From a virus (taxonomy: Duplodnaviria > Heunggongvirae > Uroviricota > Caudoviricetes), in the IMG/VR virus record IMGVR_UViG_2565956627_000012: a stretch of 13,451 bases of DNA; one strand, 5' to 3'. The translations under genes were made by a program, and so were the position numbers. Each line of letters opens with the position of its first letter. Position 1 is the first letter of the stretch. Below the pieces are notes generated by a model. The model was not told the origin of the DNA, made no database searches, and saw only the letters and a program-made list of their open reading frames with translations. Below, one piece after another: positions 3,004 through 13,451 of this stretch.

Positions 3004-3303
3004 ATGAAAAATAAAAATTCTGGCGTTACTGCCAGCGGCCCCGCTCGTCCTGAATTTATGAACGGCGATATTTACCGCGATAAATATGGCGGCATGGTAA
3101 CGATTAAAGGCGTGGCAGAACGGCGCATCACCTACCGCCGTGAAGGCTACGAATATGATTGCGTGATGCCTGTTTATCAGTTTCGGCGTGATTTTTCTCT
3201 GGTACAGGCAGCGCCCCGCAGTAAACCAACCAGCAGGGAGAAAGCACGCGCCAATATTCAGGAAATAAAAAAGATGCTTAACGTATTCAGGGGTAAAAAA
3301 TGA
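3004..3303 (+). CDS. Hypothetical protein (99 aa) immediately upstream of, and coupled to, the primase gene
   Basis: ATG at 3004 follows the upstream stop by 5 nt. Its stop overlaps the primase start (ATGA at 3300). Basic C-terminus. Confidence 0.5.
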   Translation: MKNKNSGVTASGPARPEFMNGDIYRDKYGGMVTIKGVAERRITYRREGYEYDCVMPVYQFRRDFSLVQAAPRSKPTSREKARANIQEIKKMLNVFRGKK

Positions 3304-5048
3304 AACTGGCACCGAACGTAAAAAAACAGCCACGCGGAATAAAACACAAAGACACAGAGGTAATTATTTTCGCGGGTAGTGATGCCTGGTCGCACGCGAA
3401 ACAATGGCAGGAGCAGGATGGCCCCGCATCCGGCGATAATGTGCCGCCTGTGTGGCTTGGGCCAAATCAGCTTGCCGAACTTGATGCGCTGAAAATTGTT
3501 CCGGATGGGAAAAAACGCGTAAGGCTGTACCAGGCCGGAGAACTGGATTTAGTGGAGACCAAAAAGATCGGTCAGAAGCTGGCGGCGGCAGATATTCAGG
3601 ATGCGAATTTTTACCCCGAAGGGGTGCACGGACAGAAATGTGAGAACTGGCGGCGCTATCTGAATGCTGAGCGTGAAAATATTGCCGCAGGGATCACCAT
3701 GCCGGAACAGAAAAAATCACAACTTTCACAGATGGCAGACAGTGAACGGGCACAGCTTCTTGCTTCCCGCTTTGATGGTGTCTGCGTCCATGCAGAAAGT
3801 GAAATCGTTCACGTATGGCGTGACGGGGTATGGTGTCCGGTCAGCACAATGGAACTGAGCCGCGAAATGGTGGCGGTTTATTCAGAACACGGGGCCACGT
3901 TCAGCAAGCGTGCAATTAATAACGCCGTTGAAGCGTTAAAAGTTATTGCTCAGCCAATGGGGGAGCCGTCCGGTGATTTGCTGCCGTTTGCCAATGGTGC
4001 GCTTGACCTGAGAACAGGGGAATTTTCCTCTCACCAGCCGGATAACTGGATCACCACACACAACGGCATTGAGTACACGCCGCCAGTACCAGGTGAGAAT
4101 ATCCGCGACAACGCGCCAAACTTTCATAAATGGCTTGATCACGCTGCCGGAAAAGACCCGGGCAAGATGATGCGCATATGTGCCGCGCTATACATGATTA
4201 TGGCGAACCGGTACGACTGGCAGATGTTTATTGAGGCCACCGGAGACGGCGGGAGCGGCAAGAGCACTTTCACGCACATAGCCAGCCTTCTGGCAGGGAA
4301 ACAGAACACCGTAAGCGCTGAGATGACATCACTCGATGATGCTGGTGGGCGTGCGCAGGTTGTCGGAAGTCGGCTTATTGTCCTGGCAGACCAGCCGAAA
4401 TATACAGGCGAAGGCACGGGCATCAAGAAAATCACGGGCGGCGACCCTGTGGAGATTAACCCGAAATATGAAAAGCGATTCACGACCATAATCAGGGCTG
4501 TGGTACTGGCGACCAACAACAACCCGATGATATTCACGGAACGGGCCGGAGGCGTGTCACGTCGTCGCGTGATTTTCCGTTTCGACAATATCGTCAGTGA
4601 GGCCGAAAAAGACAGAGAACTACCGGAAAAAATCGCGGCTGAAATCCCCGTCATTATCCGCCGCTTGCTGGCGAACTTTGCCAATCCTGAAAAGGCACGG
4701 GCTTTACTGATTGAGCAGCGTGACGGTGATGAAGCACTGGCAATAAAGCAACAGACGGATCCGGTTATTGAATTTTGCCAGTTCCTTAACTTTCTGGAAG
4801 AAGCACGCGGCCTGATGATGGGCGGCGGCGGTGACTCTTCCAGGTACACGACCAGAAACAGCCTTTACCGCGTCTATCTGGCGTTTATGGCGTATGTCGG
4901 CAGGAACAAGCCGCTGAACGTGGCTGAGTTCAGCAAAGCTATGAAGCCAGCGGCGAAAGTTTACGGACATGAATATATAACGCGCAGGATTAAAGGGATT
5001 ACGCAAACCAACGTGACAACAACAGACGACTGCGACGCGTTTTTATAA
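3300..5048 (+). CDS. Replication protein: primase / SF3-type helicase (phage-plasmid primase, P4-family-like C-terminal domain)
   Basis: 582 aa. Walker A P-loop 'GDGGSGKST' lies in the central/C-terminal part, and a Walker B-like 'RLIVLADQ' follows. Size and position (after alpA, before an iteron array) match satellite replication-initiator (Pri-Rep) genes. Confidence 0.85.
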   Translation: MKLAPNVKKQPRGIKHKDTEVIIFAGSDAWSHAKQWQEQDGPASGDNVPPVWLGPNQLAELDALKIVPDGKKRVRLYQAGELDLVETKKIGQKLAAADIQDANFYPEGVHGQKCENWRRYLNAERENIAAGITMPEQKKSQLSQMADSERAQLLASRFDGVCVHAESEIVHVWRDGVWCPVSTMELSREMVAVYSEHGATFSKRAINNAVEALKVIAQPMGEPSGDLLPFANGALDLRTGEFSSHQPDNWITTHNGIEYTPPVPGENIRDNAPNFHKWLDHAAGKDPGKMMRICAALYMIMANRYDWQMFIEATGDGGSGKSTFTHIASLLAGKQNTVSAEMTSLDDAGGRAQVVGSRLIVLADQPKYTGEGTGIKKITGGDPVEINPKYEKRFTTIIRAVVLATNNNPMIFTERAGGVSRRRVIFRFDNIVSEAEKDRELPEKIAAEIPVIIRRLLANFANPEKARALLIEQRDGDEALAIKQQTDPVIEFCQFLNFLEEARGLMMGGGGDSSRYTTRNSLYRVYLAFMAYVGRNKPLNVAEFSKAMKPAAKVYGHEYITRRIKGITQTNVTTTDDCDAFL

Positions 5049-5056
5049 TTTTAGAC

Positions 5057-5289
5057 AAAAGCCCTCTACCTCTTCTACCTTAAGAAAATAATTGCATATA
5101 TTTCATATGGATAGTTTTGGTAGATGGCAGGTAGAAGGCACTTAAAAGCCCTCTACACCCTCTACCATAATTCAGGGCATTTGTGAGGGGGTGGTAGATG
5201 ACAGGTAGAGGGCCAAAAAAGCCCTCTACCCCGCTGGAAACCGCGCCATTACTGACCTGAAAGATGATTAGGTAGAGAGGTAGAGGAGG
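5057..5289. repeat. Iteron array / putative origin of replication
   Basis: About 11 copies of the core CCTCTACC / GGTAGAGG in both orientations. Three copies of AAAAGCCCTCTAC(C/A) start at 5057, 5145 and 5217. Two copies of GGTAGATG(G/A)CAGGTAGA(A/G)GG sit at 5119-5138 and 5193-5212. An AT-rich block lies at 5081-5118. The array is directly downstream of the primase/helicase gene. Confidence 0.6.
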
Positions 5290-5334
5290 TGCACCACAAC
5301 CCAAAACTTTTTAAACACGAGGGTAAAAATAAAA

Positions 5335-5592
5335 ATGCACACTACAGAAAAACTTAACAATCAGAAGAAACCACACTACCGCGCTATTGACCTTACAGAG
5401 CACTGGCTGAGAGTGGCGATAAAAATCATCGACCGCAACACGGGGGAAGGATATGCGAAAGCACATCCTGAACTAATAAGCGCATTCATGACCACAGCGG
5501 CGGCAAACTTTGCCACGCTGACAGAACGGGAGATTGCCGAAGCGGAACAGGTAACAACCATCAACGTTAAAACCGGAGAGGTGGAATCATGA
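5335..5592 (+). CDS. Hypothetical protein (85 aa)
   Basis: ATG at 5335 with GAGGG upstream. Its stop overlaps the SSB-like start (ATGA). No recognisable motif. Confidence 0.5.
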   Translation: MHTTEKLNNQKKPHYRAIDLTEHWLRVAIKIIDRNTGEGYAKAHPELISAFMTTAAANFATLTEREIAEAEQVTTINVKTGEVES

Positions 5593-5999
5593 CAGCACAG
5601 ATAGCCGCTTACGGGCGGCTGGTGGCTGACCCGCAGTTAAAGACCACCAGCAAGGGCACACAAATGGCTATGGCAAGCATGGCGGTCCCCCTGCCGTGCA
5701 ATCAGGCAGATGACGGACAGGCGACGATGTGGTTATCCGTCCTGGCGTTTGGCAGACAGGCCGACGCACTGGCAAAACACCACAAAGGCGAGCTGGTGAG
5801 CGTGGCGGGTAACATGCAGGTAAGCCAGTGGACAGGCCAGAACGGCGAAACGCGGCAGGGCTGGCAGGTTATTGCAGACAGCGTAATCAGTGCCAGAACG
5901 GCGCGACCTGGTGGGAGCCGACGCAAGACCACAGGCACACAGGGTAATCAGCCACCAGCGGGAGGCGATGACCCTTACGGTGATGATATTCCGTTCTGA
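5589..5999 (+). CDS. ssb: Single-stranded DNA-binding protein (short SSB-like, OB-fold with acidic C-terminal tip)
   Basis: 136 aa. The N-terminus 'IAAYGRLVADPQLKTT...MAMASMAV' parallels the SSB OB-fold start. A Gly/Pro-rich linker 'RPGGSRRKTTGTQGNQPPAGG' is followed by the hallmark SSB tail 'DDPYGDDIPF' at the extreme C-terminus. Confidence 0.7.
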   Translation: MTAQIAAYGRLVADPQLKTTSKGTQMAMASMAVPLPCNQADDGQATMWLSVLAFGRQADALAKHHKGELVSVAGNMQVSQWTGQNGETRQGWQVIADSVISARTARPGGSRRKTTGTQGNQPPAGGDDPYGDDIPF

Positions 6000-6009
6000 G
6001 AGGGTGACG

Positions 6010-6267
6010 ATGGTACATGACCGCATAGCGGAAGAACTCGAGGCGAAAGGCTTTTACCGGAGAGCGTCGGCGCGATGGGGTGAAGTCATGCTACTGGTGG
6101 AGACAGACAAGGAACGGGAGCACATCACGATGCGACGGCTGGAATGTTGCAGAAAATCGACAAGGCCAGCACTCGGGCCGGACAATTTCAGCGATATTAA
6201 AAAAGCCGCTGATCGTGTTTATGCTGAAATGGGATTAGATAAATTAAAGGGGGAAACATGCCAGTAA
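6010..6267 (+). CDS. Small regulator-like protein, possibly PerC-family transcriptional activator
   Basis: 85 aa from the ATG at 6010, with GAGAGGG upstream. 'IAEELEAKGFYRRASARWGEVM...DKEREHITMRRLEC' resembles, from memory, the conserved core of PerC/Pch-like prophage regulators. Not verified by search. Confidence 0.4.
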   Translation: MVHDRIAEELEAKGFYRRASARWGEVMLLVETDKEREHITMRRLECCRKSTRPALGPDNFSDIKKAADRVYAEMGLDKLKGETCQ

Positions 6268-6518
6268 CCACAGAGGAAATTAAACGACACCGCGAATTAT
6301 TCGGCCTTGAACATCCGGCCCACACGACAACGGAGCGTTATCGCCAGCACCTGGCGGCGGGGGCGATATTCTGGGTTGATCATCATGGTTTTTTACGCAG
6401 CACGCTTTCCGGTGAAATTCTGGCGGCTGGTCCTGAACAGATTGATGCGCTCATCGCATATCTGGAAAAGGTGAAGCCCCGCACAGTGCAATCAGTACCA
6501 CCGGAAGACGTTAATTAA
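6258..6518 (+). CDS. Hypothetical protein (86 aa)
   Basis: ATG at 6258 preceded by a strong RBS AAGGGGG. It overlaps the upstream stop and is followed by a strong intrinsic terminator. Confidence 0.5.
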   Translation: MPVTTEEIKRHRELFGLEHPAHTTTERYRQHLAAGAIFWVDHHGFLRSTLSGEILAAGPEQIDALIAYLEKVKPRTVQSVPPEDVN

Positions 6519-6521
6519 TGG

Positions 6522-6552
6522 CCCAGCCCTGGTTTAACCAGGGCTTTTTTTG
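6522..6552 (+). terminator. Rho-independent terminator closing the replication/early operon
   Basis: Stem AGCCCTGG (6525-6532), loop TTTAA, stem CCAGGGCT (6538-6545), then a run of T at 6546-6551. Confidence 0.65.
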
Positions 6553-6575
6553 TCAGCTTTTGTAAATTATTTGTG

Positions 6576-6595
6576 CGTGGTTGTTCGTGGTTGTT
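6576..6595. repeat. Tandem direct repeat, 2 x CGTGGTTGTT
   Basis: Two perfect adjacent 10-bp copies in the leader upstream of the capsid gene. Confidence 0.3.
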
Positions 6596-6673
6596 CAGCG
6601 GCATGGCTGGCTTATTTTATCAGGCCCGAACCGTGGTTATTCTCGCCACTGTTGCCAGGACGCTGGGACCATT

Positions 6674-6712
6674 TTCCCGCCTGTTAATCTCATCAGCGTT
6701 AACAGGCGGGAA
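6674..6712. promoter_or_regulatory. 14-bp perfect inverted repeat TTCCCGCCTGTTAA-N11-TTAACAGGCGGGAA in the capsid-operon leader
   Basis: Perfect dyad at 6674-6687 and 6699-6712. No T-run follows on either strand, so a terminator is unlikely. It sits about 90 nt upstream of the capsid ATG and is a candidate operator, activator site or RNA structure. Confidence 0.35.
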
Positions 6713-6801
6713 GCCTGCATCGGTGTGCATTTCTTTTTGTTCTCGTACCGTGAGTCTTGCCGCGTCCTGGTGTTTTCCTCTTTGCATCAGGACTTTTTTT
6801 T

Positions 6802-7974
6802 ATGCCGAGAATTATCGAATTGCGCCAGCAGAAAACCGCCATCAAAAATCAGATGCGCGACATGCTGGAGAACGCGGAAAAAGAAAACCGCAGCCTTAAC
6901 GACGCCGAGGGCGCAAAATTTGACGAATTACGCGCTAAAGCTGAATCCCTCGATAAAGACATTTCCCGCCTTGAAGCCGTTGCCGACGAAGAGCGCAGCA
7001 AGCCAGGTAAAGCCAGCCAGACCACTGACCCCGCAGAACTTCGCAACTACATCGTAACGGGTGACGTTCGCTCATTATCCACCACCACCAACGGCGGCAA
7101 GGACGGTGGTTATACCGTTATCCCTGAGCTTGATCGCGAGGTTATGCGGTTACTGAGTGATGAAAGCGTCATGCGAATGATTGCGACCGTGAAAACGGCG
7201 AAATCAAACGAATATCAGAAACTGGTTTCCACAGGTGGCGCGGCTGTAAATTATGGAACCGAGGGCAGCAAGCGTAACGAAACCAACACCCCGAAAGTTG
7301 AGCGCGTAAGCATCAAACTTAACCCGATCTATGCCTACCCGAAAACCACACAGGAAATTCTGGATTTTTCAGAGGTGGACGTACTGGGCTGGTTATCGTC
7401 TGAAATCGCCGATACGTTCGCCACGACCGAAGAAGATGATTTTGTAAATGGTAATGGTACTGGCAAGCCGAAAGGTTTCCTGAGTTACAACCGAGATCTA
7501 ACCAACGACAAAACCCGCGCCTTTGGCACCATTGAAAAAATGGTAGCAGCAGCCGAAGCCGCCATTACAGCGGACGAACTGATCGACATCCTCTACAAGC
7601 TGAAAGCGAAATACCGTAAGAACGCCGTATGGGTGATGAACTCGAGCACAGCGGCAGCATTGCAGAAGCTGAAAAACCAGATCGGTGATTACGTATGGCG
7701 TGACAGCCTCAAAGAGGGCGCACCTGACACATTGCTGGGCCGTCCTGTTTATTACCTGGAAAGTATGCCGGACATCGGCAAAGGCAAAACGCCGCTGGCT
7801 GTCGGTGACTTTAAGCGCGGTTATTTCATCGTTGACCATGAAACGGGTATTCGTACCCGACCGGACAACATTACAGAGCCGGGTTTCTACAAGGTACACA
7901 CGGACAAATACATCGGCGGCGGGGTTGTTGACTCCCGCGCGATAAAAGTCCTCGAGATGAAAAACGGCGGTTAA
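6802..7974 (+). CDS. Major capsid protein, HK97 family, with N-terminal coiled-coil delta (scaffold-like) domain
   Basis: 390 aa from the ATG at 6802; the six-frame ORF starts at an upstream TTG. The N-terminal roughly 100 aa is charged and helical (delta-domain-like). The remainder has HK97-fold MCP character. No separate scaffold gene is present, consistent with HK97-type assembly. Confidence 0.85.
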   Translation: MPRIIELRQQKTAIKNQMRDMLENAEKENRSLNDAEGAKFDELRAKAESLDKDISRLEAVADEERSKPGKASQTTDPAELRNYIVTGDVRSLSTTTNGGKDGGYTVIPELDREVMRLLSDESVMRMIATVKTAKSNEYQKLVSTGGAAVNYGTEGSKRNETNTPKVERVSIKLNPIYAYPKTTQEILDFSEVDVLGWLSSEIADTFATTEEDDFVNGNGTGKPKGFLSYNRDLTNDKTRAFGTIEKMVAAAEAAITADELIDILYKLKAKYRKNAVWVMNSSTAAALQKLKNQIGDYVWRDSLKEGAPDTLLGRPVYYLESMPDIGKGKTPLAVGDFKRGYFIVDHETGIRTRPDNITEPGFYKVHTDKYIGGGVVDSRAIKVLEMKNGG

Positions 7975-11516: not shown

Positions 11517-13161
11517 GTACGCAGAAGACGTAAAAACGGGCAAAATTCCGGCCTGTAAACGGTTAAAACAGGCTGTTAAACGGTACTTTTCGGACCTTAA
11601 AAGCCCCCTTTACACGTTCGATCGTGAGGTTGTGGAGCGGTTTATTGCCTTTTCCAGGGTGTGCCCGCACGTAAAAGGACCGATGCGTGGCAGACCCATT
11701 GAGCTGGAGCCGTGGCAGCAGTTCGCCTTTGCGTGCATCCTCGGCTTTAAGGTTAAGGCCACCGGACGGCGCAAATACACGAGCGCCTTTATCGAAGTGC
11801 CGCGCAAAAATGCGAAATCCACGACCGCCGCGATTCTGGCTAACTGGTTTCTGATTATGGAGAACGGTCAGCAGGATATCTACACCGCAGCGGTGAGCCG
11901 TGACCAGGCGCGGATCGTCTTTGATGATGCGCGTCAGATGTGCCTTTTATCCCGACCGTTACGCAGGCGGGTGAATATTCAGGCGCATAAGGTGATACAC
12001 CCGAAAACCAACAGCCTGTTAAAGCCACTGGCAGCAAAAGCGGCAACCATTGAGGGGACAAACCCGAGTCTTGCCATTGTGGATGAATATCACCTGCACC
12101 CAGACAACGGGGTTTATTCCGCACTTGATATGGGGATGGGCGCACGTCCCGAAGGGCTGTTATTTGCCATTACCACATCGGGCAGTAACGTCGTTTCAGC
12201 CTGTAAGCAGCACTATGATTATTGCTGCCAGATCCTGGACGGCGAAGAGGTCAACGATTCAATTTTTGTACTGATTTACGAACTGGACGACGAAAACGAG
12301 GTTGATGATCCGGCGATGTGGATAAAGGCTAACCCTAACATCGATGTTTCCGTCGATCGTGAAAAACTGGCCTCAACCATCCAGAAAGCGCGGGGTATTC
12401 CGTCGCAATGGGTGGAAATGCTCACCAAGCGATTCAATATCTGGTGTCAGGGGGCTACGCCGTGGATGGGTAACGGTGCATGGGCGGAGTGTGCCGGAAC
12501 GTTCGCGGAGGCGGATTTATACGGGCAGGAGTGCTACGCGGGGCTGGACTTATCATCAACCAGCGATATTTCCAGCGTGTGCTATGCCTTCCCGGTCGGT
12601 AAAAAGATTATGCTGGTTTCCCGTCACTATCTGCCGGAATTTCAGCTACAGAATCCCGCCAATAAAAACCGCGCCATCTATCGCCAGTGGGTAAAGGCGG
12701 GCTGGATACGCACAACACCGGGTGACTGCATTGATTATGACCGTATCCGTGATGACATCATGGCGGATGCAGAGAATTTCAATATCAGGCTGGTGGGCTT
12801 CGATACATGGAACGCCACGCACCTGAGGACGCAGTTACAGGGCGCAGGATTTGAGGTGGAGCCGTTCCCGCAAACCTACCTCAGATTCAGTCCGGCGGCG
12901 AAATCGTTCGAAGTTTTTGTTAACCGGAAGGTGATTGTGCATCGTGGTGATCCGGTGCTGGCCTGGTCAATGAGTAATGTTGTGATGCAGAGTGACGCGA
13001 ACGCCAATATCAAGCCGAACAAGAAAAAATCATCCAACAAGATAGACCCGAGCGTTGCGGCGCTGATGGCGTTTGGCACATTCCAGGCAGAGCACGAGGA
13101 CTTTGCATTCGATATGAGCGACAGCCACAAAGAGCGGCTTGCGGCGTTTGATGGGGTATGA
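11500..13161 (+). CDS. terL: Terminase large subunit (Terminase_1-like ATPase plus nuclease)
   Basis: 553 aa. Conserved N-terminal block 'WNKYAEDVKTGKIPACKRLKQAVKRYFSDL...YTFD'. A P-loop-like 'VPRKNAKSTTAA' and Walker B-like 'LAIVDEYHL' are present. The apparent start is TTG at 11500, with GAGGA 5 nt upstream, overlapping the terS 3' end. Confidence 0.9.
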   Translation: MTAWNKYAEDVKTGKIPACKRLKQAVKRYFSDLKSPLYTFDREVVERFIAFSRVCPHVKGPMRGRPIELEPWQQFAFACILGFKVKATGRRKYTSAFIEVPRKNAKSTTAAILANWFLIMENGQQDIYTAAVSRDQARIVFDDARQMCLLSRPLRRRVNIQAHKVIHPKTNSLLKPLAAKAATIEGTNPSLAIVDEYHLHPDNGVYSALDMGMGARPEGLLFAITTSGSNVVSACKQHYDYCCQILDGEEVNDSIFVLIYELDDENEVDDPAMWIKANPNIDVSVDREKLASTIQKARGIPSQWVEMLTKRFNIWCQGATPWMGNGAWAECAGTFAEADLYGQECYAGLDLSSTSDISSVCYAFPVGKKIMLVSRHYLPEFQLQNPANKNRAIYRQWVKAGWIRTTPGDCIDYDRIRDDIMADAENFNIRLVGFDTWNATHLRTQLQGAGFEVEPFPQTYLRFSPAAKSFEVFVNRKVIVHRGDPVLAWSMSNVVMQSDANANIKPNKKKSSNKIDPSVAALMAFGTFQAEHEDFAFDMSDSHKERLAAFDGV

Positions 13162-13451
13162 CGAGAATGAGCGAAACCGAACTACTAAAAATAATCCGCC
13201 GTGTTACCGGAGCCAGCCAGACAGCAGACAAACAGGAGGCCACGCAGCCGGACAGCGTGATAGCCGAAAATTACGCGCGTGTGGTGGCTGAGGTGATGCG
13301 CCGTGACGGTATTGAGCTTAACGGCGTGGATATGCGCAACATACGAACCAGAGTCCTTGAGTTGCTGGCATACCGTCGCCGTTCTCAACAACGGAGGGAG
13401 AGCGCGAAAAATACTTATCAGTGGAAGAAGCCGGAACGGTTGCGGCGGTAA
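13158..13451 (+). CDS. Hypothetical protein (97 aa) translationally coupled to terL
   Basis: ATG at 13158 overlaps the terL stop (ATGA); an alternative ATG lies at 13167. The stop TAA is the last three bases of the window. Basic C-terminus; no recognisable motif. Confidence 0.45.
   Translation: MTRMSETELLKIIRRVTGASQTADKQEATQPDSVIAENYARVVAEVMRRDGIELNGVDMRNIRTRVLELLAYRRRSQQRRESAKNTYQWKKPERLRR

What the first reader, a model, noticed from the sequence alone, without database searches (positions are those of the whole stretch)
6010..6518. Two small coupled ORFs after the SSB gene, one PerC-like: candidate late-gene activator
The ORF at 6010-6267 has a PerC/Pch-like core (EELEAKGFYRRASARWGEVM), a family of small prophage-borne activators. 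It sits just before the terminator that separates the early/replication region from the long capsid leader. This is where a regulator of the morphogenesis operon, or a factor interfering with the helper phage, would be expected. The assignment is from recollection only.
Basis: inference. Interest (0 to 1): 0.4.

Follow-up and report, generated by a model that had tools for sequence, protein, structure and literature searches.

The report
PerC-family gene pair in capsid-forming satellite
The first of the two small genes is a true PerC-family regulator of a kind already known and annotated in E. coli phage satellites, but comparison with about 100 related elements argues against it being the dedicated switch for the capsid genes.

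Summary
ORF1 (6010-6267, 85 aa) and ORF2 (6258-6518, 86 aa) follow the SSB gene. They overlap by 10 nt and end 6 nt before a strong intrinsic terminator. ORF1 hits Pfam PerC (PF06069) at E=2.5e-36 over its full length. The identical protein is already annotated in RefSeq as a PerC family transcriptional regulator.

The window is a capsid-forming PICI (cf-PICI). PerC alleles in E. coli PICIs are already described in the literature, including PchE.

The late-gene-activator reading is not supported by comparison. Among 80 related cf-PICI loci, only 7 carry PerC. Their capsid leaders share a conserved DNA box, a promoter-like site and a covarying RNA structure. PerC homologs also occur in PICIs without capsid genes, on plasmids, and in lambdoid phages that use Q as late regulator. 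Characterised homologs act on host genes such as LEE, curli and flagella.

ORF2 (PHROG 1957, no Pfam, no fold match) tracks the capsid module much better, at 66 of 80 loci, but it too is dispensable.

Most likely PerC is an accessory, host-directed regulator. ORF2's function is unknown. Interest is low to moderate.

The parts
5589..5999 (+). SSB gene, immediately upstream and same transcription unit (context)
   Evidence: Pfam SSB PF00436 E=1.3e-16 and TIGR00621. Its stop lies 10 nt before the ORF1 ATG.
6010..6267 (+). ORF1: PerC-family small regulator, 85 aa (WP_021546407.1 in RefSeq)
   Evidence: PF06069 E=2.5e-36, 124 bits, residues 1-81 of 90 model positions. phrog_994 E=3.9e-37. 100% identical protein annotated 'PerC family transcriptional regulator' in E. 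coli SB0258h1 and ZH063. 62-81% identical to the 90-aa PerC of other E. coli cf-PICIs; its C-terminal tail differs.
6258..6518 (+). ORF2: 86-aa protein of an uncharacterised cf-PICI-associated family (PHROG 1957). Overlaps ORF1 by 10 nt.
   Evidence: phrog_1957 E=1e-24; no Pfam, NCBIfam or PADLOC hit. 39 family representatives. The 74-aa gene of the O55:H7 / EDL933-type island belongs to the family (hhalign probability 99.8%, E=3.4e-30). Found upstream of the capsid gene in 66 of 80 IMG/VR loci. AF2 model pLDDT 88, topology H-H-b-b-b-H. No fold match.
6525..6552 (+). Intrinsic terminator T1 ending the replication/accessory operon
   Evidence: 10-bp perfect stem AGCCCTGGTT/AACCAGGGCT followed by T7. 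Other E. coli islands have a hairpin plus T-run here with a different stem, GCCGGA/TCCGGC.
6559..6574 (+). Conserved box TTTGTAAATTATTTGT at the 5' edge of the packaging module
   Evidence: One copy per locus in 77 fetched cf-PICI loci, 205-232 nt upstream of the capsid ATG. Absent from the fetched non-capsid PICIs. Unique in the window.
6576..6596 (+). Two tandem copies of CGTGGTTGTTC, with a third degenerate copy at 6632-6642
   Evidence: 3 matches against 0.32 expected; 0 of 200 shuffles reach 3.
6616..6643 (+). Putative weak sigma-70 promoter of the capsid operon (TTTATC, 16-nt spacer, TATTCT). Inferred, not shown.
   Evidence: The same position relative to hairpin 1 holds TTTACC-16-TATTCT in other E. 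coli islands and TTTACA-16-TATGTT or TTTACT-16-TATCTT in other lineages (reading). It falls below the threshold of the scan.
6655..6666 (+). Leader hairpin 1 (CCAG-GACG-CTGG). It can also pair with 6762-6770.
   Evidence: Compensatory changes across lineages: CTCA/TGAG, CTCC/GGAG, CCAG/CTGG. The alternative long-range pairing is 93% paired, with 17 double-change cells against 3.9 in shuffles.
6674..6712 (+). Central leader hairpin (14-bp perfect stem)
   Evidence: repeat I2. A long hairpin of quite different sequence occupies this place in every lineage.
6764..6801 (+). Hairpin that sequesters the capsid Shine-Dalgarno (AGGA 6789-6792), followed by T8 and then the ATG: terminator-like
   Evidence: Sequence reading, MFE and centroid fold (z=-4.8). 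The equivalent SD-sequestering hairpin in other lineages lacks the T-run.
6802..7974 (+). Major capsid protein gene, first gene of the packaging operon (context)
   Evidence: 95% identical to the annotated 'phage major capsid protein' in L001.

Best explanation
The window is a capsid-forming phage-inducible chromosomal island (cf-PICI). ORF1 and ORF2 are the last two genes of its rightward replication/accessory operon (DUF4222, primase, phrog_1231, SSB, ORF1, ORF2). Terminator T1 closes that operon.

ORF1 is a bona fide PerC/Pch-family protein of the clade that includes the PerC of EcCIEDL933-type islands (PchE). It most likely acts in trans on host chromosomal promoters, as an accessory regulator carried by the satellite. 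The likely mechanism follows what is shown for Pch and the related ANR proteins: changing H-NS-type nucleoprotein complexes or the activity of other regulators. It is probably not the dedicated activator of the capsid operon.

ORF2 belongs to an uncharacterised small-protein family. This family is the commonest, though not obligatory, occupant of the slot just upstream of the capsid-operon leader.

The capsid operon appears to have its own control region: a conserved box, a weak promoter and a structured leader with alternative pairings. This region is conserved whether or not PerC or ORF2 is present.

Shown here: family membership, gene order, coupling, terminator, distribution, and covariation in the leader. 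Inferred: the operon structure, the host-directed role of this PerC allele, and the promoter.
For: Element type. The window encodes integrase, AlpA-like protein, DUF4222, D5-type primase, SSB, HK97-type capsid, protease, portal, head closure protein, connector, HNH, TerS and TerL, with no tail or lysis genes. This matches the published cf-PICI description (10.1101/2022.09.08.507074).

PerC membership. PF06069 E=2.5e-36. RefSeq annotation agrees.

Distribution.
- PerC is present in 7 of 80 IMG/VR cf-PICI loci, ORF2 in 66 of 80, and neither in 14 of 80.
- In E. coli, islands exist with PerC only (IAI39 and others), with ORF2 only (L017), or with both.
- The leader box is present once per locus in 77 loci, whatever lies upstream.
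- PerC-like DNA occurs in 1089 of 5426 complete E. coli genomes, against 443 for the leader.
- PerC homologs follow primase or SSB in islands without capsid genes in E. albertii, E. ruysiae, Kluyvera, Shimwellia, Enterobacter and Citrobacter, and in E. coli L104.
- They also occur on 233 plasmids and in 53 phage records. In SfII the PerC-domain gene lies between O and dam, while Q is the late regulator.

Literature.
- PICI PerC alleles are already noted (PMC6092414).
- PchE barely affects ler, but represses csgD/curli and raises flhDC (PMC5931665, PMC6265319, PMC7369912).
- EcCIMP1_025 represses LEE1 (PMC11773190).
- Pch relieves H-NS silencing (PMC4764244).
Against: No experiment has tested any PICI PerC on a capsid-leader reporter, so a role in cis cannot be excluded.

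In E. coli specifically, most cf-PICIs with this leader type do carry PerC right before it. A lineage-specific role is therefore possible.

The putative capsid promoter is weak (3 of 6 and 4 of 6 hexamer matches), with repeats upstream of its -35 hexamer. This suggests that some activator is needed, and its identity is unknown.

PerC lies in the operon expected to be induced by the helper phage through AlpA. That timing suits a life-cycle function better than a lysogenic-conversion function, although pchE is reported to be expressed at a low steady level and to fall on SOS induction (PMC7369912).

The phenotypes of homologs come mostly from over-expression.

The equation of the EcCIEDL933 PerC with PchE (ECs1588, Sp7/OI-51) is pieced together from papers and from a database name on a partial protein (P0033). 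It was not checked by direct sequence comparison.
Confidence: 0.55

Rival explanations
1. PerC is the island's late-gene activator. After helper-triggered, AlpA-dependent expression, it turns on the weak promoter in the capsid leader. It could do so by binding the box or repeats, or by relieving H-NS silencing there.
For: PerC is the last or next-to-last gene before the leader in the E. coli cf-PICIs examined. The putative promoter is weak and has upstream repeats. Pch proteins can activate promoters by anti-silencing (PMC4764244).
Against: 73 of 80 related cf-PICI loci lack PerC but keep the box, promoter position and leader structure. L017 in E. coli has the E. coli-type leader without PerC. 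PerC homologs are common in PICIs, plasmids and phages that have no such operon. The leader is not markedly AT-rich, at 44-54% GC, so it is not an obvious H-NS target.
Confidence: 0.15
2. ORF2, not PerC, is the trans-acting partner of the capsid control region. It would be a small nucleic-acid-binding protein that acts on the conserved box (DNA) or on leader hairpin 1 (RNA). This would favour the open, anti-sequestering fold and so switch on capsid synthesis.
For: The ORF2 family lies upstream of the capsid gene in 66 of 80 IMG/VR loci. In 36 of these its stop codon is only 213-276 nt from the capsid ATG, so it abuts the leader. It is also present in Xenorhabdus cf-PICIs, and in Klebsiella satellites that have an unrelated protease-capsid fusion gene. 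The leader has two conserved, mutually exclusive pairings that would need a trigger.
Confidence: 0.15
3. Both ORFs are cargo of the variable region between the replication and packaging modules. Others expect this region to hold immunity or helper-interaction genes. On this reading ORF2, perhaps together with PerC, acts on the helper phage, a competing phage or a host defence, and not on the island's own genes.
For: The 2025 cf-PICI study describes the regions before and after the packaging operon as variable and expected to encode immune systems (10.1101/2025.02.11.637232). The slot holds alternative small genes (60-aa and 111-aa ORFs) and reverse-strand cargo in other loci.
Against: Neither ORF gave a PADLOC hit. 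EcCIEDL933, inferred from the O55:H7 island L010 to carry homologs of both, does not reduce helper phage titres. ORF2 is far more conserved in position than typical cargo.
Confidence: 0.15

Closest known systems
PchE (ECs1588, group 3 perC homolog of E. coli O157:H7, carried on Sp7/OI-51, the EcCIEDL933 cf-PICI) and the 90-aa PerC proteins of other E. coli cf-PICIs
   Same: Same Pfam family and same place in the island, after SSB and before the capsid leader. Identity is 62-81%, and the first 60 or so residues are almost the same (MVHDRIAEELEAKGFYRRA.ARWGEVM.LVETDKER...).
   Different: The window's protein is 85 aa, not 90. Its C-terminal tail differs (...GLDKLKGETCQ instead of ...GIDG.G..IWRNY...), and its last codons overlap ORF2. 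This allele plus window-type ORF2 was found in only 2 of 5426 complete E. coli genomes. Whether it shares the PchE phenotypes (curli down, flagella up) is untested.
PerC of EPEC (pEAF) and PchA/B/C of EHEC: activators of the LEE1 (ler) promoter that relieve H-NS silencing
   Same: Same Pfam family PF06069. All are small proteins carried on mobile elements (PMC4764244).
   Different: Identity to plasmid and phage PerC homologs is only about 30-45%. The PICI-borne group 2 and 3 homologs had little or no effect on ler (PMC5931665; Porter 2005 as cited in PMC11773190).
EcCIMP1_025, the PerC-family gene of the classical PICI EcCIMP1
   Same: A PerC-family gene carried by an E. coli PICI and treated there as an accessory gene (PMC11773190).
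   Different: It is reported to be about 40% identical to the EcCIEDL933 PerC and to repress LEE1. EcCIMP1 has no capsid module.
ANR (AraC negative regulator) family, e.g. Aar
   Same: Small helical regulators that act through protein-protein contacts with AraC-type activators and H-NS. There is a weak sequence resemblance: NF033650 E=0.0032 over residues 7-49.
   Different: The score of 17.3 bits is below the curated cutoff of 32, so the protein is not a member.
Dedicated late-gene regulators of phages and satellites (lambda Q, P2 Ogr / P4 Delta)
   Same: A similar position in the genome, at the end of the early region and before the morphogenesis genes.
   Different: Neither ORF shows any sequence relationship to these families. 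In phage SfII a PerC-domain gene and Q coexist, with Q next to the late genes.

Membership tests
PerC / Pch family (Pfam PF06069) | Profile-HMM score above the curated gathering threshold over most of the domain | tested here: met
   124.3 bits against a cutoff of 22.6, E=2.5e-36, residues 1-81 on model positions 1-81 of 90.
PerC / Pch family (Pfam PF06069) | Conserved N-terminal core (E-x-K-G-x-Y-R-R-A-x-x-R-W) in a protein of roughly 80-110 aa | tested here: met
   Nearly invariant columns K13 G14 Y16 R17 R18 A19 A21 R22 W23 in alignment A1. The protein is 85 aa.
PerC / Pch family (Pfam PF06069) | Activates the LEE1/ler promoter (the founding function) | not testable with these tools
   Needs a reporter assay. 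The nearest tested relatives, PchD and PchE, have minimal effect (PMC5931665).
ANR family (NCBIfam NF033650) | Score above the curated cutoff | tested here: not met
   17.3 bits against a cutoff of 32, E=0.0032.
Capsid-forming PICI (cf-PICI), the element carrying the two ORFs | int, alpA and primase/rep genes, plus its own capsid, protease, portal, connectors, HNH, TerS and TerL; no tail or lysis genes; size 10-15 kb | tested here: met
   The 98%-identical island in E. coli SB0258h1 lies between gcd and hpt and spans about 14.6 kb. The definition is from 10.1101/2022.09.08.507074.
Capsid-forming PICI (cf-PICI), the element carrying the two ORFs | Induced and mobilised by a helper phage, using only its tails | not testable with these tools
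   Needs induction and transfer experiments.
PHROG 1957 (ORF2) | Profile match over the full length | tested here: met
   E=1e-24, residues 1-77 on profile positions 1-77 of 82. The family has no known function.
Phage or satellite late-gene activators (Q, Ogr/Delta) | Sequence membership in one of these families | tested here: not met
   Neither ORF hits any such family in Pfam, PHROGs or NCBIfam. The ORF2 model has no significant fold match.
Known anti-phage defence proteins (PADLOC) | Match to a defence-system model | tested here: not met
   No hit for ORF1 or ORF2 at E<=1.

The most novel reading that the evidence does not exclude
The capsid operon of HK97-type cf-PICIs may be governed by a control module that has not been described. 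It would comprise an invariant DNA box, a weak promoter, and a leader RNA that toggles between an SD-sequestering or terminator fold and an open fold. The small genes parked just upstream (the ORF2 family, and in Escherichia the PerC-ORF2 pair) would be its trans-acting switch. That would make them a new kind of satellite late-gene regulator.
Probability: 0.12. Interest if true: 0.65.

Novelty: already known. Interest (0 to 1): 0.3.

Why it matters
How cf-PICIs time the expression of their own capsid and packaging genes relative to the helper phage's tail production is not described in the papers I could read. If PerC or ORF2 controlled it, that would identify the switch of a widespread gene-transfer vehicle.

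The comparison instead indicates that the PerC gene is one more allele of a known, mobile, host-directed regulator family. Its relevance is to virulence, adhesion and motility regulation in E. coli.

The open question shifts to two things: the conserved leader, and the uncharacterised ORF2 family that travels with capsid modules.

Tried and rejected
- **Single-sequence AF2 of ORF2.** It gave a poor model (pLDDT 51) and was replaced by an alignment-based model (pLDDT 88).
- **Sequence search of the PDB.** The PerC profile found nothing. The ORF2 profile gave only a weak match to N.BspD6I residues 86-121 (E=0.004), which I do not treat as evidence.
- **Long proteins with several ORF2-like stretches.** P0055 is an amidase with GW repeats that shares only the short motif FWIDVHGL, and P0070 is a low-complexity repeat protein matching no Pfam family above its cutoff. 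I rejected these matches as uninformative.
- **hhalign of ORF2 family against PerC family.** No relation (probability 0.4%). The 77-aa Xenorhabdus ORF upstream of ORF2 is not related to ORF2 and has no Pfam hit.
- **Rfam on the window.** No family found.
- **tblastn of ORF2 against 50,697 phage records.** No match.
- **H-NS silencing of the leader.** I considered it because the box resembles AT-rich H-NS sites. The leader is 44-54% GC, so I did not pursue it.
- **A second copy of the box near the early (AlpA) region.** None was found.
- **Porter et al. 2005 (PMC543544).** It could not be read, so its results are cited only as reported by other papers.

Full report
**What is there.** The window is a capsid-forming phage-inducible chromosomal island (cf-PICI). 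It encodes the following genes:
- a tyrosine integrase (1-1239) and a small AlpA-like gene (about 1655-1858);
- a DUF4222 protein (3004-3303) and a D5-type primase (3300-5048);
- a small phrog_1231 ORF (5335-5592) and an SSB (5589-5999);
- the two ORFs of the finding;
- an HK97-type packaging module: capsid 6802-7974, protease, portal, head-closure protein, connector, HNH, TerS and TerL.

It has no tail or lysis genes. A 98% identical island lies between gcd and hpt in E. coli SB0258h1. This layout matches the published description of cf-PICIs, whose prototype is EcCIEDL933 (bioRxiv 10.1101/2022.09.08.507074).

ORF1 (6010-6267, 85 aa) starts 10 nt after the SSB stop, behind a GAGG Shine-Dalgarno. 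ORF2 (6258-6518, 86 aa) starts inside the end of ORF1, with the overlap ATGCCAGTAA, behind a G-rich Shine-Dalgarno. Six nucleotides after the ORF2 stop lies a 10-bp perfect hairpin followed by seven T (6525-6552). In other E. coli islands the stem sequence differs, but a hairpin plus T-run is kept at this place.

**ORF1 is a PerC-family protein.**
- It matches Pfam PerC (PF06069) at E=2.5e-36 and 124 bits against a cutoff of 22.6, over residues 1-81 of a 90-position model.
- The NCBIfam ANR model gives only 17.3 bits against a cutoff of 32.
- PGAP already names the identical protein (WP_021546407.1) 'PerC family transcriptional regulator'.
- Its nearest relatives, at 62-81% identity and all from E. 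coli, are the 90-aa PerC proteins that occupy the same position in other cf-PICIs.
- One partial member of this clade carries the database name PchE (P0033).
- From the literature, pchE is ECs1588 in Sp7/OI-51 (PMC1890555). OI-51 is a 15-kb island of the PICI type (PMC6092414). EcCIEDL933 is stated to encode a PerC-like gene tested by Porter et al. 2005 (PMC11773190). The link between the EcCIEDL933 PerC and PchE is therefore my inference, not a direct sequence check.
- The window's allele differs from the 90-aa proteins in its C-terminal tail, where ORF2 overlaps it.

**ORF2 is a real gene of unknown function.**
- It matches phrog_1957 at E=1e-24. It has no Pfam, NCBIfam or PADLOC hit.
- An exhaustive HMMER search found 39 cluster representatives at E<=1e-3, mostly stand-alone proteins of 75-100 aa. 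The named ones come from Xenorhabdus, Klebsiella, Pluralibacter and Pseudomonas.
- The 74-aa gene that follows PerC in the O55:H7 (EDL933-type) and JNE132847 islands belongs to this family (hhalign probability 99.8%, E=3.4e-30).
- An alignment-based AlphaFold model is confident (pLDDT 88), with the order helix, helix, three short strands, long helix.

**Distribution is the main evidence on function.** I fetched 80 related loci from IMG/VR through the capsid protein (70-83% identity). I then scanned the 3.5 kb upstream of each capsid gene with HMMs of the two families.

| Feature upstream of the capsid gene | Loci (of 80) |
|---|---|
| PerC present (always in the order SSB, PerC, ORF2) | 7 |
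| ORF2 family present | 66 |
| Neither present | 14 |

- In 36 of the 66 ORF2-bearing loci, the ORF2 stop is 213-276 nt from the capsid ATG. In the other 30, a further 0.5-1.7 kb of sequence lies between ORF2 and the leader.
- The 14 loci with neither gene have other small ORFs (60 aa or 111 aa) and reverse-strand cargo in the slot.
- In E. coli, all combinations exist: PerC only (IAI39, UCPROB-002, EC100, MS20645), ORF2 only (L017), or both.
- ORF2 homologs also precede the capsid gene in Xenorhabdus cf-PICIs. They precede an unrelated ClpP-protease/capsid fusion gene in Klebsiella satellites.
- Conversely, PerC homologs follow the primase or SSB in islands without any capsid gene, in E. albertii, E. 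ruysiae, Kluyvera, Shimwellia, Enterobacter and Citrobacter and in E. coli (ProQ, PerC, DUF1441).
- PerC homologs also occur on 233 plasmids and in 53 phage records. In phage SfII the PerC-domain gene lies between O and dam, several genes upstream of Q.
- Among 5426 complete E. coli genomes, PerC-like DNA is found in 1089, the capsid leader in 443, and the window's own type of ORF2 in only 2.

**The capsid control region does not depend on PerC.** Downstream of T1 the leader contains five elements:
1. A box, TTTGTAAATTATTTGT (6559-6574). It is present exactly once per locus, 205-232 nt before the capsid ATG, in 77 fetched cf-PICI loci. It is absent from the non-capsid PICIs.
2. Tandem CGTGGTTGTTC repeats (6576-6596).
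3. A weak promoter-like site, TTTATC-16-TATTCT (6616-6643). Stronger versions lie at the same place in other lineages. This is my reading, and it is an inference.
4. Hairpin 1 (6655-6666) and a long central hairpin (6674-6712).
5. A hairpin (6764-6793) that buries the capsid Shine-Dalgarno. In the E. coli lineage it is followed by T8 and then the ATG.

On a 37-sequence alignment, hairpin 1 plus the SD hairpin are 90.5% paired, with 32 double-change cells against 5.2 in shuffles. An alternative pairing of hairpin 1 (6655-6663) with the 5' arm of the SD hairpin (6762-6770) is 93% paired, with 17 against 3.9. Both far exceed the slid controls. Rfam has no matching family. These elements occur in loci with PerC, with ORF2, with both or with neither. 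Whatever acts on them is therefore unlikely to be PerC, and cannot be ORF2 alone.

**What relatives are known to do.**
- Pch proteins activate LEE1 by relieving H-NS/StpA/Hha/YdgT silencing (PMC4764244).
- The PICI-borne relatives behave differently. PchD and PchE have minimal effect on ler (PMC5931665).
- Over-expressed PchE represses csgD and curli and raises flhDC. Its native expression is low and falls on SOS induction (PMC6265319, PMC7369912).
- EcCIMP1_025 represses LEE1, and its authors suggest ANR-like action (PMC11773190).
- Fillol-Salom et al. list PerC alleles among PICI accessory/virulence genes (PMC6092414).
- EcCIEDL933 does not block its helper phages. I infer from the O55:H7 island L010 that it carries homologs of both ORFs.
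- The cf-PICI papers I could read do not discuss PerC, ORF2 or the regulation of the packaging operon. One of them calls the regions flanking the packaging operon variable and expects them to hold immune systems.

**Verdict.** The family assignment is right, but it is already in the databases and the literature. The late-activator idea is a reasonable guess from position, yet the comparative data speak against it.

I consider it most likely (about 0.55) that ORF1 is an accessory regulator aimed at host genes. ORF2 is then a member of an uncharacterised family that accompanies capsid modules.

The minority possibilities are a lineage-specific role of PerC at the leader (about 0.15), ORF2 as the leader's trans-acting factor (about 0.15), and cargo acting on phages or defences (about 0.15). 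All of these can be tested with a leader reporter and two deletions.

The structured, covarying capsid leader and the box are the most interesting things seen. They lie outside the coordinates of this finding.

Noticed in passing
window 6559-6801: The capsid-operon leader carries an invariant box (TTTGTAAATTATTTGT), tandem CGTGGTTGTTC repeats, a weak promoter-like site and three hairpins. It also has a conserved alternative pairing (6655-6663 with 6762-6770) that would free the Shine-Dalgarno or prevent the terminator-like hairpin before the ATG. Covariation supports both folds across 37 sequences. There is no Rfam match.
   Followed up: partly
window 5057-5290: Iteron-like repeats (GGTAGAGGGC and AAAAGCCCTCTAC, in both orientations) lie in the 286-nt gap between the primase gene and the phrog_1231 ORF. 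This is probably the island's replication origin.
   Followed up: no
L018-L020 7001-9495 (Klebsiella pneumoniae): A different satellite type: DUF927 primase, ORF2-family gene, a 64-aa ORF, then a 638-aa ClpP-protease / Mu gpT-like capsid fusion. The same small gene thus precedes an unrelated capsid module.
   Followed up: no
L023-L102, region between ORF2 and the capsid leader: In 30 of 66 loci, 0.5-1.7 kb of sequence lies between ORF2 and the leader. In the loci without ORF2, the slot holds alternative 60-aa or 111-aa ORFs plus reverse-strand cargo genes. This looks like a cargo hotspot, consistent with the 'variable region before the packaging operon' of the 2025 cf-PICI study.
   Followed up: partly
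P0065; window 5335-5592 and 6258-6518: One database protein is a chimera. Its N-terminal half resembles the window's phrog_1231 ORF and its C-terminal half is ORF2 family. This suggests recombination between these two small genes in some islands.
   Followed up: no
window 13158-13451; L004 8588-8773, L006 8417-8602, L007 13113-13298: The last ORF of the window (ending ...YQWKKPERLRR) has relatives ending ...YQWKKPAPR in PICIs that lack capsid genes. It gives only a weak PADLOC BrxA hit (E=0.0096).
   Followed up: no
L105 3210-3695 (Shigella phage SfII): In a lambdoid phage the PerC-domain protein (161 aa) sits directly after the O replication gene, with no P-like gene annotated between them. 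PerC-family genes therefore follow replication genes in both phages and satellites.
   Followed up: no
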